IMG/VR virus record: IMGVR_UViG_2602041568_000003
Strand: one strand, 5' to 3'
Origin: a virus
Taxonomy: Duplodnaviria; Heunggongvirae; Uroviricota; Caudoviricetes
Length of the DNA: 9,911 bases
In this document: piece by piece, positions 179 through 9,911 of the stretch
How the letters are laid out: the number at the start of each line of letters is the position of its first letter
How positions within the stretch are numbered: position 1 is the stretch's first letter
Made by a program: the position numbers and the translations under genes
The notes under the pieces: model-generated
Told to the model about the DNA's origin: nothing
The model's database searches: none
Seen by the model: only the letters and a program-made list of their open reading frames with translations

Positions 179-931
179 ATGGCAACACCAAATCCCCTTG
201 AGCCGGTAAAAGGTGCCGGTACCACTCTGTGGGTTTACAACGGCAAGGGTGATGCTTATGCAAACCCGTTGTCAGACGATGACTGGCAGCGACTGGCTAA
301 GGTGAAGGATCTGACGCCGGGCGAGATGACGGCAGAATCCTACGATGATAACTACCTGGATGATGAAGACGCGGACTGGACCGCGACCGGTCAGGGGCAG
401 AAATCTGCAGGTGATACCAGTTTTACGCTGGCCTGGAAACCGGGAGAGGAAGGCCAGAAAGGGCTTATAGGCTGGTTTGAAAGCGGCGATGTCCGGGCCT
501 ATAAAATCCGTTTTCCGAATGGCACGGTGGATGTGTTTCGTGGCTGGGTCAGCAGTATCGGTAAGGCCGTGACGGCGAAAGAAGTGATCACCCGCACGGT
601 GAAAGTCACTAACGTGGGTAAACCTTCTGTAGCGGAAGAACGCAGCAAAATTACGCCGGTCAGTGCGATTAAGGTGACGCCGACATCCGGTACGGTGGCA
701 AAAGGGAAAACAACCACCCTGACGGTTTCTTTTGAGCCGGAAAGTGCAACCGACAAGACGTTCAGAGCGGTTTCCGCCGATCCGTCGAAAGCCACCATTA
801 GTGTGAAAGATATGACAATTACGGTAAACGGCGTGGCGACAGGTAAGGTGCAGATCCCTGTGGTGAGCGGAAATGGTCAGTTCGCCGCAGTGGCTGAAGT
901 CACCGTTACTGAAGCGGGCGCTGCAGGGTAA
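179..931 (+). CDS. V: Major tail tube protein V (250 aa) with C-terminal Ig-like domain
   Basis: ORF 179-931; Shine-Dalgarno GAGGA 4-5 nt upstream of ATG; N-terminus ([66 protein letters not shown]) matches lambda gpV as I recall it; C-terminal ~90 aa are Thr/Val-rich beta-type sequence consistent with the Ig-like (Big_2) domain of gpV. Confidence 0.95.
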
Positions 932-5445: not shown

Positions 5446-6138
5446 GTGTGCGCCTGCGGAGTCGTGATAAGCACGCCGGAGGGGGAGTGGTATATCCCTT
5501 GTGTGAATATTTCTGCAGAGCCGGAGGCGTATTTTCGTATCGCACCGGAAGACTGGCTGCGGGCAGAGATGCAGGGGGAGATTGTGGCACTGGTCCACAG
5601 TCATCCCGGTGGGCTGCCCTGGCTGAGCGAGGCTGACCGGCGGCTGCAGATAAAAAGCGCACTGCCCTGGTGGCTGGTCTGCCGGGGTGACATTCACAAA
5701 TTCCGCTGCGTGCCGCACCTGACGGGACGGCGCTTTGAGCACGGGGTGACGGACTGTTACACCCTGTTCCGGGATGCATACCATCTGGCGGGGACTGAAA
5801 TGCCGGATTTTCATCGCGAGGATGACTGGTGGCGCCACGGTCAGAACCTTTACCTGGACAATATGGCGGTCACCGGCTTTTACCGGGTGCCCCTGTCCTC
5901 TGCACAGGCGGGCGATATTCTGCTGTGCTGCTTTGGTGCTTCGGTACCGAACCATGCCGCCATTTACTGCGGCAACGGTGAGCTGCTTCACCATCTGCCT
6001 GAACAACTGAGTAAACGGGAGAGGTATTCCGAAAAATGGCAACGACGAACGCATTCTGTCTGGCGTCACCGCCACTGGCACGCATCTGCCTTCACGGGGA
6101 TTTGCAACGATTTGGCCGCCGCCTCAGCCTGTATGTGA
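5446..6138 (+). CDS. K: Tail tip assembly protein K (JAMM/MPN-like plus NlpC/P60-like); 5' boundary uncertain (GTG 5446 as drawn; alternative ATG 5405 is in another frame)
   Basis: ORF 5446-6138 contains the JAMM-type motif HSHPGGLPWLSEAD (HxHx7SxxD) near the N-terminus and a C-terminal region with conserved Cys/His typical of gpK; the 3' end overlaps I by 103 nt. The start is ambiguous: an ATG at 5405, 11 nt after the L stop, opens a 20-codon frame that stops at 5465-5467. Confidence 0.8.
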   Translation: MCACGVVISTPEGEWYIPCVNISAEPEAYFRIAPEDWLRAEMQGEIVALVHSHPGGLPWLSEADRRLQIKSALPWWLVCRGDIHKFRCVPHLTGRRFEHGVTDCYTLFRDAYHLAGTEMPDFHREDDWWRHGQNLYLDNMAVTGFYRVPLSSAQAGDILLCCFGASVPNHAAIYCGNGELLHHLPEQLSKRERYSEKWQRRTHSVWRHRHWHASAFTGICNDLAAASACM

Positions 6139-6716
6139 ACACGGCAGCGGAAGCCATTCGCGCCCTGTCGATGCAGATGCCGGGCTTTCGCCGTCAGATG
6201 AACGAAGGCTGGTACCAGATACGTATTGCCGGTGATGACACGGCACCGGAGGCGGTGTATGCCCGTCTTCACGAACAGCTGGGTGAGGGAACGGTCATCC
6301 ACATTGTGCCGCGACTGGCCGGGGCCGGAAAGGGTGGACTGCAGATTGTGCTGGGGGCGGCAGCCATCGTGGGCTCTTTCTTCACGGCCGGAGGCTCGAT
6401 GGCGTTATGGGGTACAGCCCTGAGTGCCGGTGGTTTTTCTGCCACCACGATGCTGTTTTCACTGGGTGCCAGCATGATACTGGGCGGAGTGGCCCAGATG
6501 CTGGCCCCGAAGGCAAAAACACCGGATTACCGCGCAACGGATAACGGCAGACAGAACACGTACTTTTCCTCGCTGGATAACATGATTGCCCAGGGGAACC
6601 CGATGCCGGTGCCTTACGGGGAAATGCTGGTTGGCTCCCGCCGTATATCCCAGGACATCAGCACCCGTGATGAAGGCGGGGGCGGAAAGGTCGTGGTTAT
6701 CGGGCGGCAGGGGTAA
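6036..6716 (+). CDS. I: Tail tip assembly protein I (226 aa)
   Basis: ORF 6036-6716; SD GGGAGAGG upstream; motifs ARICLYGDLQRFGRR-like (here ARICLHGDLQRFGRR), IHIVPR, QIVLGAAAI, MLAPKA, QNTYFSSLDNM and C-terminal VVVIGR match lambda gpI as I recall it. Confidence 0.92.
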   Translation: MATTNAFCLASPPLARICLHGDLQRFGRRLSLYVNTAAEAIRALSMQMPGFRRQMNEGWYQIRIAGDDTAPEAVYARLHEQLGEGTVIHIVPRLAGAGKGGLQIVLGAAAIVGSFFTAGGSMALWGTALSAGGFSATTMLFSLGASMILGGVAQMLAPKAKTPDYRATDNGRQNTYFSSLDNMIAQGNPMPVPYGEMLVGSRRISQDISTRDEGGGGKVVVIGRQG

Positions 6717-6721
6717 AAAGA

Positions 6722-6820
6722 ATAAAAAAATCCCGCAGTGATCGCGGACAGGAACTGCGGGAGAGTTACGAAGATTAAGTGTAAGGAATTATTCTTATAT
6801 CACGACAAAAAAATTAACGC
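6722..6820 (-). ncRNA. Candidate ~100-nt small RNA (promoter-to-terminator unit, no ORF)
   Basis: Bounded by the minus-strand promoter (-10 at 6832-6827) and the minus-strand terminator at 6762-6731 plus U-tail; the predicted transcript has no ATG and only GTG/TTG followed within 2-3 codons by stops; it contains an AAGAAUAAU tract and ends in a U-tail. Ends are predicted, not mapped. Confidence 0.35.
6731..6762 (-). terminator. Intrinsic (rho-independent) terminator, minus-strand orientation
   Basis: Perfect 9-bp stem (6731-6739 TCCCGCAGT with 6754-6762 ACTGCGGGA) and 14-nt loop; on the minus strand it is followed directly by a U-run (rc of 6717-6730 = TTTTTTTATTCTTT). On the + strand the stem is followed by GAGTTACG, so it is not a + strand terminator. 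Confidence 0.55.
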
Positions 6821-6826
6821 AGAGAA

Positions 6827-6854
6827 ATTATACGCGCCACAGTCAGTGTGTGAA
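6827..6854 (-). promoter_or_regulatory. Sigma70-like promoter, minus strand (-35 TTCACA / 16-bp spacer / -10 TATAAT)
   Basis: On the minus strand: TTCACA (rc of 6849-6854), 16-nt spacer, perfect TATAAT (rc of 6827-6832); predicted start near 6820; it sits in the only AT-rich stretch of the window. Confidence 0.5.
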
Positions 6855-6926
6855 AATGTGAAGATATTCAGAATTTTTATGCCATTACCGGTTTTAACCA
6901 ACAGGATTATCGGTGGGCATGAAAGA

Positions 6927-6956
6927 AAACCCCGGTATCTGCTGATACCGGGGTTT
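6927..6956. terminator. Strong bidirectional intrinsic terminator
   Basis: 13-bp stem (6927-6939 AAACCCCGGTATC with 6944-6956 GATACCGGGGTTT), 4-nt loop TGCT; + strand downstream TTTCTCTTT-type U-rich tail (CTCTTT after the stem), minus strand downstream UUUUCUUUC (rc of 6918-6926). Confidence 0.6.
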
Positions 6957-7059
6957 CTCTTTAGCATGGCAGAAATGTGTTTCATGCTTTTCGGGCGAAG
7001 GATATCCGACTTCTGTACGGAATGGCAAGTGGCGGTTAATTTATTCAGGGGAAGGCTGT

Positions 7060-9911
7060 ATGGGAAAAGGTGGCGGTAAGGCACACACGCCTCGTGAGGC
7101 GAAGGATAATCTCAAATCCACGCAGATGATGAGTGTGATTGATGCGATTGGTGAGGGACCGATAGAAGGTCCGGTGAAGGGACTGCAGAGTATTCTGGTG
7201 AACAAAACCCCGCTGACGGACACGGACGGTAATCCCGTGATACACGGTGTGACCGCGGTCTGGCGTGCCGGGGAGCAGGAGCAGACACCACCGGAAGGCT
7301 TTGAGTCCTCCGGAGCTGAAACCGGACTGGGCGTGGAAGTGACGAAGGCAAAACCGGTGACGCGCACCATTACGTCCGCGAACATTGACCGCCTGCTGAT
7401 TCAGTTACAGCGTAACGGTAACTGGGTGACAGAAAAGGACGTCACCATTAACGGCAAGACCACCTCACAGTTCCTGGCCTCGGTGATTCTGGATAATCTG
7501 CCTCCCCGGCCCTTTAACATCCGGATGGTCAGGGAGACGGCGGACAGCACCACGGACCAGCTGCAGAATAAGACGCTGTGGTCGTCATACACCGAAATCA
7601 TCGATGTGAAACAGTGCTACCCGAACACGGCCATTGTGGGGCTGCAGGTGGATGCGGAGCAGTTCGGCGGCCAGCAGATGACGGTGAACTACCATATCCG
7701 CGGTCGTATCATCCAGGTGCCGTCAAACTATGACCCGGAAAAACGCACGTACAGTGGTATCTGGGACGGCAGTCTGAAACCGGCATACAGCAACAACCCG
7801 GCCTGGTGCCTGTGGGACATGCTGACTCACCCGCGCTACGGCATGGGAAAACGTCTGGGGGCGGCGGATGTGGACAAGTGGGCGCTGTATGCCATCGGGC
7901 AGTACTGCGATCAGACGGTCCCGGATGGTTTCGGGGGGACCGAGCCGCGGATGACCTTTAATGCGTACCTGGCACAACAGCGTAAGGCGTGGGACGTTCT
8001 CAGTGATTTCTGCTCTGCGATGCGCTGTATGCCGGTATGGAACGGGCAGACGCTGACGTTCGTGCAGGACCGCCCATCGGATAAGGTGTGGCCGTACACC
8101 AACAGCGATGTGGTGGTGGATGATAACGGCGTGGGATTCCGCTACAGCTTCAGTGCCCTGAAGGACCGGCACACGGCGGTGGAGGTGAATTACACCGACC
8201 CGCAGAACGGCTGGCAGACCTCCACGGAACTGGTGGAAGACCCGGAAGCCATACTGCGCTACGGACGCAACCTGCTGAAGATGGACGCGTTCGGCTGTAC
8301 CAGCCGCGGTCAGGCCCACCGTGCCGGACTGTGGGTGATAAAGACCGAACTGCTGGAAACGCAGACGGTGGATTTCACGCTCGGGTCTCAGGGGCTGCGG
8401 CACACACCCGGTGACATCATTGAAATCTGTGATAACGACTATGCCGGGATCCTGACCGGCGGACGTGTCCTGTCCATTGATGCTGCCACCCGCACCCTGA
8501 CGCTGGACCGTGAAGTGACACTTCCGGAGACCGGTGCCGCCACGGTGAACCTGATTAACGGCAGCGGTAAGCCAGTGAGTGTGGACATCACCGAACACCC
8601 CGCGCCGGACCGGATACAGGTCAGTACCCTGCCTGATGGTGTGGAGACATACGGGGTGTGGGGACTCTCCCTGCCGTCACTGCGCCGTCGCCTGTTCCGC
8701 TGTGTCTCCGTCCGGGAAAACACGGACGGCACCTTTGCCATCACGGCGGTGCAGCACGTACCGGAAAAAGAAGCCATCGTGGATAACGGTGCCCGCTTTG
8801 AGCCGCAGTCAGGTTCCCTGAACAACGTCATCCCACCGGCAGTGCAGCACCTGACGGTGGAGGTGAGCGCAGCTGACGGCCAGTATCTGGCGCAGGCGAA
8901 ATGGGACACGCCGCGGGTGGTGAAGGGTGTGCGCTTCAGTCTGCGCCTGACCAGTGGTAAGGGAACGGATGCCAGACTGGTGACCACCGCCATCACCGCA
9001 GACACGGAGCACCGTTTCAGCGGCCTGCCGCTCGGGGAATACACCCTGACGGTGCGGGCGATAAACAGCTATGGCCAGCAGGGTGAACCTGCCACCACCA
9101 CCTTCCGGATTGCCGCACCGGCAGCACCGTCGCGGATTGAGCTGACGCCGGGCTATTTTCAGATAACCGCCACGCCGCATCTTGCCGTTTATGACCCGAC
9201 GGTACAGTTTGAGTTCTGGTTCTCGGAAAAGCGGATTGCGGATATCAGGCAGGTTGAAACCGCAGCCCGCTATCTTGGCTCGGCGCTGTACTGGATAGCT
9301 GCCAGTATCAATATCAAACCGGGCCATGATTATTATTTTTATATCCGCAGTGTGAATACTGTTGGCAAATCGGCATTCGTGGAGGCTGTCGGTCGGGCGA
9401 GCGATGATGCGGAAGGTTACCTGGATTTTTTCAAAGGAGAAATCGGGAAAACACATCTGGCCCAGGAGCTGTGGACGCAGATTGATAACGGTCAGCTTGC
9501 GCCGGACCTGGCTGAAATCAGGACGTCCATTACGAATGTCAGCAATGAAATCACGCAGACCGTCAATAAAAAACTGGAAAATCAGAGTGCGGCAATCCAG
9601 CAGATACAGAAAGTTCAGGTTGATACAAATAATAACCTGAACAGCATGTGGGCCGTGAAACTGCAGCAGATGCAGGACGGACGCCTTTATATTGCGGGTA
9701 TCGGTGCCGGTATTGAGAATACGCCAGCAGGAATGCAGAGTCAGGTGCTGCTGGCGGCAGACAGGATTGCGATGATTAATCCTGCGAATGGCAACACAAA
9801 GCCGATGTTTGTTGGTCAGGGCGATCAGATATTTATGAATGAAGTGTTCCTGAAATATCTGACGGCTCCCACCATTACCAGCGGCGGTAATCCTCCGGCA
9901 TTTTCCCTGAC
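7060..9911 (+). CDS. J: Tail tip / central tail fibre protein J, N-terminal ~950 codons (3'-truncated by window edge)
   Basis: ATG at 7060 with SD GGGGAAGG 6-8 nt upstream; the frame (codon phase of 7060) reads without a stop to the window end, which is why it is missing from the ORF track; translation begins [39 protein letters not shown] and continues through recognisable gpJ blocks ([162 protein letters not shown]). Confidence 0.95.

What the first reader, a model, noticed from the sequence alone, without database searches (positions are those of the whole stretch)
6722..6854. Self-contained promoter-to-terminator unit on the minus strand between I and J: candidate ~100-nt prophage small RNA
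Seen directly: a near-consensus sigma70 promoter on the minus strand (TTCACA, 16-bp spacer, TATAAT; -10 at 6832-6827) faces a minus-strand intrinsic terminator (9-bp GC-rich stem 6762-6731 followed by UUUUUUUAUUCUUU) about 100 nt away. The intervening transcript has no plausible ORF and carries an (ARN)3-like AAGAAUAAU tract plus a 3' U-tail, features typical of Hfq-binding small RNAs. It is convergent with the tail operon, ending just past the I stop codon. Lambdoid prophages of pathogenic E. coli are known to encode regulatory small RNAs in intergenic moron positions (anti-sRNAs such as AgvB/AsxR are named examples of the class); I cannot tell from sequence whether this locus is one of the described ones or a new one.
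Basis: partly seen in the sequence, partly recalled or inferred. Interest (0 to 1): 0.65.

Follow-up and report, generated by a model that had tools for sequence, protein, structure and literature searches.

The report
Prophage small RNA gene, PasB family
The promoter-to-terminator unit between tail genes I and J is real and is a divergent version of a known Hfq-dependent prophage small RNA (PasB in EPEC, EcOnc22-24 in EHEC), so the kind is known but this common version from extraintestinal E. coli has not been studied.

Summary
A near-consensus sigma-70 promoter (TTCACA-16-TATAAT, 6854-6827, minus strand) faces a strong intrinsic terminator (stem 6762-6731, then U7). The predicted RNA is 99 nt and has no ORF.

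It is not an unknown. The same cassette sits at the same place (after the I stop, antisense to the tail operon) in EPEC E2348/69. There it is PasB, an 83-nt RNA seen on Northern blots, reported as Hfq-dependent, with 37 RIL-seq partners. It also sits in EHEC Sakai prophages Sp15, Sp14 and Sp11, where it is EcOnc22/23/24. I tied those names to this locus through the published probe and through CLASH hybrid reads. No paper in the searched library links the two names.

The window carries a distinct allele. The promoter block is about 95% identical to PasB and the terminator 3' half is identical. The RNA as a whole matches in only 65 of 91 aligned columns. The published PasB BLAST settings do not detect it. 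About 650 of 5,426 complete E. coli genomes, CFT073 among them, carry this allele.

The most likely mechanism is an Hfq-dependent, trans-acting base-pairing RNA made in lysogens. That is inferred from the homologs, not shown here. AgvB/AsxR membership is rejected.

Two by-products: an invariant CRP-like palindrome upstream of the promoter, and arrays of up to four cassettes in some STEC prophages.

The parts
6873..6880 (-). A-rich tract (AUAAAAAU on the minus strand) just upstream of the palindrome; a possible UP-element-like subsite
   Evidence: Read. 5 of its 8 columns are invariant across 40 distinct promoter blocks. The UP-element reading is my inference from the published consensus.
6857..6872 (-). 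Imperfect palindrome TCTGA-N6-TCACA (TGTGA-AGATAT-TCAGA on the + strand). It matches the CRP consensus at 9 of 10 positions and is centred at -44.5 from G6820.
   Evidence: Pattern match. Both half-sites are invariant (0 of 10 variable columns), while N6 varies in 4 of 6 columns and the -35 in 5 of 6, in a set anchored only on the seed and terminator. No binding protein was tested.
6849..6854 (-). -35 hexamer TTCACA
   Evidence: This hexamer varies between alleles: TTCACA, TTCTGT, TCCGGC, TTTGCA and others.
6827..6832 (-). -10 hexamer TATAAT
   Evidence: The 16-bp spacing is kept in 53 of 56 family members; variants are AATAAT, TATCAT, CATAAT and GATAAT.
6820..6820 (-). Predicted transcription start (G, seventh base after the -10)
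   Evidence: Inferred from promoter geometry. The PasB 5' end annotated from RNA-seq coverage corresponds to window position 6807, so the mature 5' end is uncertain by about 14 nt.
6722..6820 (-). Predicted primary transcript, 97-99 nt; a PasB/EcOnc22-24 family small RNA of the window allele
   Evidence: Homology to E2348/69 PasB. 16 diverse alleles aligned.
6807..6813 (-). 5' U-run (U7), present in almost all alleles
   Evidence: Alignments. Either a 5' leader removed by processing or part of the mature RNA.
6788..6796 (-). AAGAAUAAU, three A-R-N triplets; a candidate Hfq distal-face motif
   Evidence: Read. Every allele has an A-rich block here although the sequence differs, e.g. AACAAAAACAAC in PasB. 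The A-R-N motif is defined in PMC4104026.
6768..6787 (-). Candidate seed UCCUUACACUUAAUCUUCGU, including UUAAUCUUC (6778-6770), the best conserved motif of the body
   Evidence: Conservation. No conserved structure covers it. The EHEC allele pairs through the equivalent CCAUAACGUU in CLASH hybrids. Zhu et al. place the predicted PasB seed just upstream of the terminator.
6731..6762 (-). Terminator hairpin: 9-bp stem UCCCGCAGU/ACUGCGGGA plus 2 inner pairs
   Evidence: The 8-bp core stem is kept in 16 of 16 diverse alleles with no covariation, which neither supports nor refutes it. The PasB Northern probe matches 20 of 23 bases here.
6724..6730 (-). U7 tail; 3' end and Hfq proximal-face site
   Evidence: PasB ends at the equivalent last U.
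6135..6716 (+). Tail assembly gene I (context); stop codon at 6714-6716
   Evidence: Annotation of the identical stretch in strain 7/2; ORF list.
7060..9911 (+). Tail tip gene J (context); runs off the end of the window

Best explanation
This is a small-RNA gene inserted as a self-contained cassette between the stop codon of tail gene I and tail tip gene J of a lambda-like prophage, and it is read against the tail operon. It belongs to the family called PasB in EPEC and EcOnc22/23/24 in EHEC, and the window carries a divergent allele.

In a lysogen, host sigma-70 RNA polymerase starts at the TTCACA-16-TATAAT promoter and stops at the hairpin plus U7. The product is an RNA of about 85-99 nt.

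By analogy with its homologs, the RNA is bound and stabilised by Hfq through the 3' U-tail, and probably through the A-R-N tract. It then pairs with host or prophage mRNAs through the unstructured stretch UCCUUACACUUAAUCUUCGU. RNase E is likely recruited.

Because the pairing stretch differs from PasB and from EcOnc22, the target set is probably allele-specific.

Shown here: the anatomy, the position and the homology. Shown by others for homologs only: expression, dependence on Hfq, and RNA-RNA contacts. Inferred: all of these for this allele.
For: Same locus and orientation as PasB:
- In E2348/69, PasB (NC_011601.1 1466343-1466261, 83 nt) lies between the I and J genes exactly as in the window.
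- The promoter block is near-identical, and the terminator 3' half plus U7 is identical.
- The PasB Northern probe matches window 6727-6746.

Published data on PasB:
- It was validated by Northern blot and reported as Hfq-dependent.
- Table S2 lists log2 fold changes of -6.8 and -2.4. I take these to be delta-hfq versus wild type; I did not read that legend.
- It has 37 RIL-seq interactions and is RNA2 in about 99-100% of its chimeras.

Link to EcOnc22-24:
- The Sakai Sp15 I-J spacer holds the cassette.
- The reverse complement of the published EcOnc22/23/24 probe matches GTTAATCTTCATCGTTCTCTCCC there.
- The CLASH hybrid reads start with GCCTGAAAAATAACTCCATAACGTTAATCTTCA, which is that element exactly.
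- Tree et al. report Hfq cross-linking, a band of about 85 nt, and destabilisation without Hfq.

Family architecture is conserved in 73 distinct elements. The body has no conserved structure and the terminator is invariant. 609 complete genomes hold the window allele at 99% identity or more.
Against: There are no expression, Hfq-binding or target data for this allele. Nothing was found for CFT073 or ST131.

Rfam has no model for the family and gave no hit.

The RNA matches PasB in only 65 of 91 aligned columns, so targets cannot be transferred.

The terminator stem never varies, so covariation gives no support.

The 5' end is unresolved: the promoter predicts G6820, while homolog data point to about 6807.

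Conservation across prophages that recombine often could partly reflect recent common descent.
Confidence: 0.8

Rival explanations
1. The RNA acts mainly in cis, in the manner of lambda OOP RNA. It is perfectly complementary to the I-J spacer of the late tail transcript. After induction it would form a duplex with that mRNA, be cut by RNase III, or interfere with transcription by head-on collision, and so lower or uncouple expression of J. This could coexist with a trans role.
For: The RNA is convergent with the tail operon and lies wholly inside the I-J transcribed spacer. The cassette sits at this one position in every prophage examined. Lambda itself has only a 60-bp I-J spacer, so the cassette is an insertion at that point.
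Against: The RNA does not overlap the I or J coding sequence or their ribosome-binding sites; it ends 6-8 nt after the I stop and starts 240 nt before J. The body is the most variable part, which fits changing trans targets better than a fixed cis role; any sequence would serve as antisense to itself. Homologs are abundant in uninduced cultures and have many trans partners. No excess pairing to tail-gene start regions was found.
Confidence: 0.12
2. It works chiefly as a sponge (anti-sRNA) or Hfq competitor that titrates other small RNAs, as AgvB and AsxR do, rather than regulating mRNAs.
For: An A-R-N tract together with a U-tail suggests binding to both Hfq faces. One PasB chimera in EPEC is with the pasA intergenic region (19 chimeras).
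Against: Most PasB partners fit the authors' criterion of CDS or 5'UTR targets (Table S6 criteria). There is no sequence or positional relation to AgvB/AsxR.
Confidence: 0.05
3. It is a chance pairing of a promoter-like site with a terminator that serves the tail operon, or a decayed remnant with no function of its own.
For: Promoter-like and terminator-like matches do occur by chance. In a few phages the promoter has been replaced by a sodC insertion and the body remains. One O157 copy lacks the 5' arm of the terminator.
Against: On the + strand the hairpin has no U-tail, so it cannot terminate the tail operon. The whole unit is kept in 56 of 61 distinct elements with fixed spacing. Homologs are expressed.
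Confidence: 0.02
4. The spacer encodes a small protein.
For: ORFs of 113 aa (+ strand) and 94 aa (- strand) cross the spacer. One phage record annotates a 32-aa hypothetical protein there.
Against: No Pfam family matches and only one PHROG family, at E = 0.097. Spacer length varies between 83 and 186 nt and alleles differ by indels that are not multiples of three. The transcript itself has no ORF longer than two codons.
Confidence: 0.01

Closest known systems
PasB small RNA of EPEC E2348/69 (Pearl Mizrahi et al. 2021, PMC8550237; Zhu, Shabalina and Storz 2026, bioRxiv 10.64898/2026.05.13.724894)
   Same: Same position (after the I stop, before J) and same antisense orientation. The promoter block is near-identical, including the upstream palindrome. 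The terminator 3' half and U7 are identical. The layout is the same: U-run, A-rich block, UCCUU, AAUCUUC.
   Different: The RNA matches in only 65 of 91 aligned columns and has indels. The published search settings (word size 28, coverage above 75%) do not find it. The terminator loop is longer. The window has the 186-nt spacer type, EPEC the 84-nt type.
EcOnc22/EcOnc23/EcOnc24 of EHEC Sakai prophages Sp15, Sp14 and Sp11 (Tree et al. 2014, PMC4104026; Waters et al. 2017, PMC5286369)
   Same: Same cassette at the I-J spacer. Bound by Hfq, about 85 nt, destabilised without Hfq. UUAAUCUUC and the terminator are shared.
   Different: The -35 is different (TCCGGC), the -10 is AATAAT, and the pairing stretch is CUCCAUAACGUU against UUCCUUACACUU in the window. 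The CLASH partner yjbJ would therefore not be matched by the window allele.
AgvB and AsxR anti-sRNAs (Rfam RF02702, RF02703)
   Same: Prophage-encoded RNAs associated with Hfq in pathogenic E. coli.
   Different: They lie downstream of PR' at the moron site, are 51-60 nt long, and have a conserved 3' region unrelated to this one. Rfam gives no hit in the window.
Lambda OOP RNA (from my own knowledge: a 77-nt antisense RNA to the 3' end of cII, acting through RNase III)
   Same: A short phage RNA with its own promoter and terminator, convergent with a phage operon.
   Different: OOP overlaps a coding region; this RNA overlaps only a spacer. No RNase III data exist for it.
CyaR (from my own knowledge: a core-genome, Hfq-dependent small RNA activated by CRP)
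   Same: Possible analogy only: a CRP-like palindrome sits upstream of the promoter. PasB is more abundant in LB at 27 C than in DMEM at 37 C.
   Different: The site is centred at -44.5, not at -41.5 or -61.5. No binding or regulation data exist, and there is no sequence relation.
HnrS (EcOnc10/11/12; PMC13502914)
   Same: A multicopy, Hfq-associated small RNA in the late regions of EHEC and EPEC prophages.
   Different: It is 66 nt, lies at other loci in Sp9, Sp10 and Sp12, and represses hha.

Membership tests
I-J spacer small-RNA cassette family (PasB / EcOnc22-24, broad sense) | Lies between tail assembly gene I and tail tip gene J, on the strand opposite to the tail operon, ending a few bases after the I stop | tested here: met
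   Window. E2348/69. Sakai Sp15. Twelve further loci.
I-J spacer small-RNA cassette family (PasB / EcOnc22-24, broad sense) | Alignable homology of the promoter block, the UCCUU...AAUCUUC core and the terminator CCCGCAG...CUGCGGGA-U7 | tested here: met
I-J spacer small-RNA cassette family (PasB / EcOnc22-24, broad sense) | Expressed as an RNA of about 83-85 nt | not testable with these tools
   Shown for PasB and EcOnc22 only.
I-J spacer small-RNA cassette family (PasB / EcOnc22-24, broad sense) | Binds Hfq and depends on it for stability | not testable with these tools
   Homolog data. The window has the sequence prerequisites: a U7 tail, the hairpin, and an A-R-N tract.
PasB in the strict sense (variants as defined operationally by Zhu et al. 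2026) | Found by blastn with the 83-nt E2348/69 PasB at word size 28 with query coverage above 75%; the variants they discuss differ by a few SNPs | tested here: not met
   Megablast at word size 28 gives no hit. At word size 11 only the 25-nt terminator aligns, 30% coverage. Settings taken.
AgvB/AsxR anti-sRNAs | Match to Rfam RF02702 or RF02703; position downstream of PR'; length 51-60 nt | tested here: not met
   No Rfam hit at gathering score, nor at E up to 10 in 6650-7100. Position and length.
Hfq-dependent small RNAs that use both Hfq faces | Rho-independent terminator with a U-tail of 6 or more, plus an (A-R-N)n motif in a single-stranded region | tested here: met
   U7 and AAGAAUAAU are present. 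This is a sequence prerequisite only; binding was not tested.
CRP-dependent promoters | TGTGA-N6-TCACA site centred near -41.5 (class II) or near -61.5, -71.5 and so on (class I) | tested here: inconclusive
   The site matches 9 of 10 positions and its half-sites are invariant across the family. Its centre is at -44.5 from the predicted start, which fits neither class.
OOP-like cis-antisense phage RNAs | Overlaps the coding region of the convergent gene | tested here: not met
   The RNA 3' end at 6722-6724 lies downstream of the I stop at 6714-6716. It is complementary only to the transcribed spacer.

The most novel reading that the evidence does not exclude
The I-J spacer of lambdoid prophages may be a dedicated slot for small-RNA cassettes. 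A fixed promoter, whose most conserved part is a CRP-like palindrome, and a fixed terminator would frame a pairing region that is exchanged by recombination. The cassette can be stacked, up to four in tandem in some STEC prophages. On this reading the window allele gives extraintestinal E. coli such as CFT073 its own set of targets, possibly under cAMP-CRP control. Neither the arrays, nor the operator, nor the equivalence of PasB and EcOnc22-24 appears in the papers I could search.
Probability: 0.3. Interest if true: 0.6.

Novelty: new member of a known kind. Interest (0 to 1): 0.35.

Why it matters
The family occurs in about a third of complete E. coli genomes (1,842 of 5,426). The window allele alone is in about 650 of them, including reference uropathogens, yet it falls outside the published PasB survey and has no target or phenotype data.

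If it is active, a widespread prophage supplies many clinical strains with a post-transcriptional regulator that nobody has looked at.

Recognising that EcOnc22-24 and PasB are the same cassette lets data from EHEC (CRAC, CLASH) and from EPEC (RIL-seq) be read together.

The invariant palindrome gives a concrete, testable lead to what controls the gene.

Tried and rejected
- Rfam at gathering score over the whole window, and at E up to 10 over 6650-7100: only weak terminator-driven chance matches.
- AgvB/AsxR: wrong locus, wrong size, no model hit.
- HnrS (EcOnc10-12) and sRNA-17 of E. coli K1: read and found to be other loci.
- Protein coding: no family support.
- Pairing of the RNA with the start regions of the nine tail genes in the window: no energy beyond shuffled controls, |z| below 1.5.
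- Covariation: the consensus fold gives only an invariant terminator stem, so there is no test.
- One viral-collection scan was wasted on a pattern with the wrong spacer length.
- The scan of one genome per species found the element only in E. albertii, plus two tiny contigs in Streptomyces and Parendozoicomonas assemblies that are probably contamination.
- Searching paper texts for the RNA sequence, and for UPEC, CFT073 or TSS studies covering this locus, found nothing usable.
- The long spacer upstream of the promoter has no similarity to the spacers of the tandem arrays and is not a dispersed repeat.
- I did not extract the full PasB target list from RIL-seq Table S3. The file is large and only the first rows could be reached.

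Full report
**1. The observation**

- The minus strand carries TTCACA (6854-6849), a 16-bp spacer and TATAAT (6832-6827). This scores 11 of 12 in the consensus scan.
- Downstream there is a hairpin of 9+2 base pairs (U6762 to A6731) followed by U7 (6730-6724). The scan itself reports only the inner 6-bp version.
- With transcription starting at G6820, the RNA is 97-99 nt.
- It has no AUG and no ORF longer than two codons.
- It carries AAGAAUAAU at 6796-6788.
- It ends 6-8 nt after the stop codon of gene I (6714-6716).
- On the + strand the hairpin is followed by GAGAGUUACG, not by a U-run. It is therefore a terminator for the minus strand only.
- The surrounding genes are a lambda-type tail operon: V, G, T, H, M, L, K, I, then the spacer, then J, lom and stf.

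**2. What it is**

Rfam has no hit and RefSeq annotates nothing in the spacer. The literature does.

Pearl Mizrahi et al. (PMC8550237) list PasB in EPEC E2348/69: minus strand, 1466343-1466261, 83 nt, prophage PP6, between E2348C_1436 and E2348C_1437. Their Northern probe is AATCCCGCAGTGATCGCGGAGCT. That probe matches window 6727-6746 at 20 of 23 bases.

I fetched the E2348/69 locus. PasB lies between the tail assembly gene and gpJ, just as here.

The two loci align as follows:
- The promoter block is near-identical.
- The last 25 nt (terminator 3' arm plus U-tail) are identical.
- The RNA as a whole matches in only 65 of 91 aligned columns and has several indels.

**3. A second name for the same thing**

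Tree et al. (PMC4104026) list EcOnc22, EcOnc23 and EcOnc24 in Sakai prophages Sp15, Sp14 and Sp11. They report Hfq cross-linking, a band of about 85 nt, and destabilisation without Hfq.

Three results tie these to the cassette:
- The Sakai Sp15 spacer between the host specificity (J) and tail assembly (I) genes contains the cassette.
- The reverse complement of their probe matches GTTAATCTTCATCGTTCTCTCCC in it.
- The RNase E CLASH hybrid reads of Waters et al. (PMC5286369) assigned to EcOnc22/23/24 begin with GCCTGAAAAATAACTCCATAACGTTAATCTTCA, which is that element exactly.

The published coordinates differ from the current record by about 133-136 bases. The same offset holds for the partner gene.

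The PasB table leaves its note column, which records EHEC homologues for other Pas RNAs, empty for PasB. The only paper in the searched library that names EcOnc22 is a review that lists its targets as unknown. The equivalence appears not to have been stated.

**4. Anatomy of the family**

I collected 73 distinct elements with a promoter-to-terminator pattern. A second set of 61 was anchored only on the seed and terminator. Fourteen more loci were sampled by BLAST across the identity range.

In RNA sense, the cassette reads in this order:
- an A-tract;
- TCTGA-N6-TCACA;
- a variable -35;
- a -10 at a 16-bp spacing in 53 of 56 elements (TATAAT, AATAAT, TATCAT, CATAAT or GATAAT);
- CUGCGUUA at the start site;
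- a U-run;
- an A-rich block that differs by allele but keeps the A-R-N pattern;
- (C/U)UCCUU;
- UUAAUCUUC;
- CCCGCAG-loop-CUGCGGGA followed by U6-9.

A consensus fold of 16 diverse alleles finds only the terminator stem. It never varies, so covariation says nothing either way. An unstructured body in front of a terminator is the usual build of Hfq-dependent RNAs.

Alleles look mosaic. The same body occurs with different flanks and different -35 regions.

**5. The window allele**

This allele is common. 650 complete E. coli genomes have it at 95% identity or more (609 at 99% or more), CFT073 among them. The E2348/69 type is found at 95% or more in 927 genomes. The family as a whole is in 1,842 of 5,426 genomes, with up to 8-10 places per genome.

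Phage records also carry the family, mostly Stx-converting phages. Phage PhiR5_1 holds a near copy of the window allele, 96.3% identical.

Zhu et al. searched with the 83-nt PasB at word size 28 and kept hits above 75% coverage. Repeating that against the window gives no hit. At word size 11 only the 25-nt terminator aligns. The window allele therefore lies outside their set of PasB variants, which they describe as differing by a few nucleotides.

Outside Escherichia, the pattern was found only on two very short contigs that look like contamination.

**6. The promoter**

In the set anchored on the seed and terminator, 56 of 61 distinct elements keep the palindrome. Of the other five, four have the whole promoter replaced by an inserted sodC gene. 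The fifth lies in unrelated sequence.

Variable columns across 40 distinct promoter blocks:

| Segment | Variable columns |
|---|---|
| Two half-sites | 0 of 10 |
| N6 between them | 4 of 6 |
| -35 | 5 of 6 |
| 16-bp spacer | 14 of 16 |
| -10 | 5 of 6 |

Invariant half-sites around a free spacer are the footprint expected of a dimeric DNA-binding protein.

On the + strand the site reads AAATGTGA-AGATAT-TCAGA, which is 9 of 10 against the CRP core. PasB is reported to be higher in LB at 27 C than in DMEM at 37 C. That would fit catabolite control, but many other things differ between those two conditions.

Against CRP: the centre is at -44.5 from G6820, which is neither the class II nor a class I position. 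I leave the regulator open.

**7. How it most likely works**

By homology, the RNA is made in the lysogen and held by Hfq through its U-tail and probably through the A-R-N tract. It then pairs with mRNAs through the open stretch 6787-6768.

Supporting data, all from homologs:
- PasB has 37 RIL-seq partners and is almost always the second RNA in its chimeras.
- The EHEC allele was caught paired to the yjbJ coding region through CCAUAACGUU, the stretch equivalent to window CCUUACACUU.

Those bases differ in the window, so targets are likely allele-specific.

The 5' end is unsettled. The promoter predicts G6820. The annotated PasB 5' end and the CRAC and CLASH fragments begin just after the U-run, which corresponds to about 6807 in the window. 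Processing in the U-run, loss of U-rich ends during library preparation, or RNase A trimming could each explain the difference.

**8. Rivals**

- **A cis role.** The RNA is fully complementary to the spacer of the late tail transcript, so a cis effect after induction is possible. It touches neither coding sequence nor ribosome-binding site, however, and its body is the variable part. That argues for trans targets as the selected function.
- **A sponge role** cannot be excluded.
- **Chance, or a remnant,** is unlikely given the conservation and the expression of homologs.
- **A protein** has no support.

**9. Verdict**

The finding is real, and the kind of element was guessed correctly. It is a new, unstudied member of a known family rather than a new kind. 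The named comparators AgvB and AsxR do not apply.

What is new here:
- the equivalence of PasB and EcOnc22-24;
- the recognition that a major allele in extraintestinal E. coli was missed by the published survey;
- the invariant palindrome;
- tandem arrays of the cassette in other prophages.

Noticed in passing
L135 (RNA sense 690-1515; + coordinates 296-1196); also L215, L221, L222 (3-4 cassettes) and L092, L127, L131, L214 (2 cassettes): Some prophages carry two to four complete cassettes head to tail in the I-J spacer. Each has its own A-tract, TCTGA-N6-TCACA and -10, and each has a different body. One has a different terminator stem (CUCCCGU/ACGGGAG). The four-cassette array is present at 80% coverage or more in 67 of 5,426 complete genomes, and the strains listed include several STEC. 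Nothing is annotated there. The published survey gives 28 kb as the smallest distance between pasB copies, so it did not see these arrays.
   Followed up: partly
window 6926-6957 (hairpin) and 6873-7062 (long spacer): The rest of the I-J spacer folds far better than shuffles (z = -5.7 on the minus strand). It holds a 10-bp GC-rich hairpin, extendable by A-U pairs, with U-rich tails on both strands. Together with a weak promoter-like site at 7028-6999 (TTGCCA-18-TATCCT) it could be a second minus-strand RNA of about 78 nt. The block is in 1,445 genomes, about once each, and is almost invariant. A variant in two loci lacks exactly a 47-bp piece containing the hairpin.
   Followed up: partly
L001 1413-1496 and other short-spacer loci; lambda L233 846-905: Prophages with the short (83-84 nt) spacer have a + strand terminator-like hairpin just before J (CAGGCAyCC...GGrTGCCTG, then TTGTTTTTG). 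There is one compensatory C-G to T-A change between variants. Phage lambda has a comparable hairpin (CCGCC-TGCG-GGCGG, then TTTTG) in its 60-bp I-J spacer. Its role ahead of J is unexplained.
   Followed up: partly
L196 1040-1760 (also L197, L200, L201, L203, L205): In these phages a Cu/Zn superoxide dismutase gene (sodC) with its own terminator is inserted in the RNA's orientation. It replaces the cassette promoter up to about position -7. A body of the window type and the terminator remain without a promoter.
   Followed up: partly
L191 (Parendozoicomonas haliclonae, 460-bp contig) and L193 (Streptomyces flavalbus, 3.4-kb contig): Two assemblies of unrelated organisms contain this E. coli prophage element on very short contigs. 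This is probably contamination of those assemblies.
   Followed up: no
window 802-817 and 1789-1804: Two further one-mismatch matches to TGTGA-N6-TCACA lie inside the tail genes. The window holds three such matches against 0.28 expected by chance. I did not examine whether these two are conserved.
   Followed up: no
L089 (E. coli O157:H7 SS17): This copy sits in a decayed prophage (L truncated, I missing, J frameshifted). It has lost the 5' arm of the terminator, so it is probably defective.
   Followed up: no
L092 and L131, first cassette: One allele departs even in the best conserved motif: GUUAGUCAAC instead of UUAAUCUUC, with a -10 of GTGCAT. The core motif is therefore not universal in the family.
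   Followed up: no
L195 (strain 7/2, identical to the window): The RefSeq locus tags jump from RS06230 (gene I) to RS06240 (gene J). A feature once called in the spacer seems to have been withdrawn.
   Followed up: no
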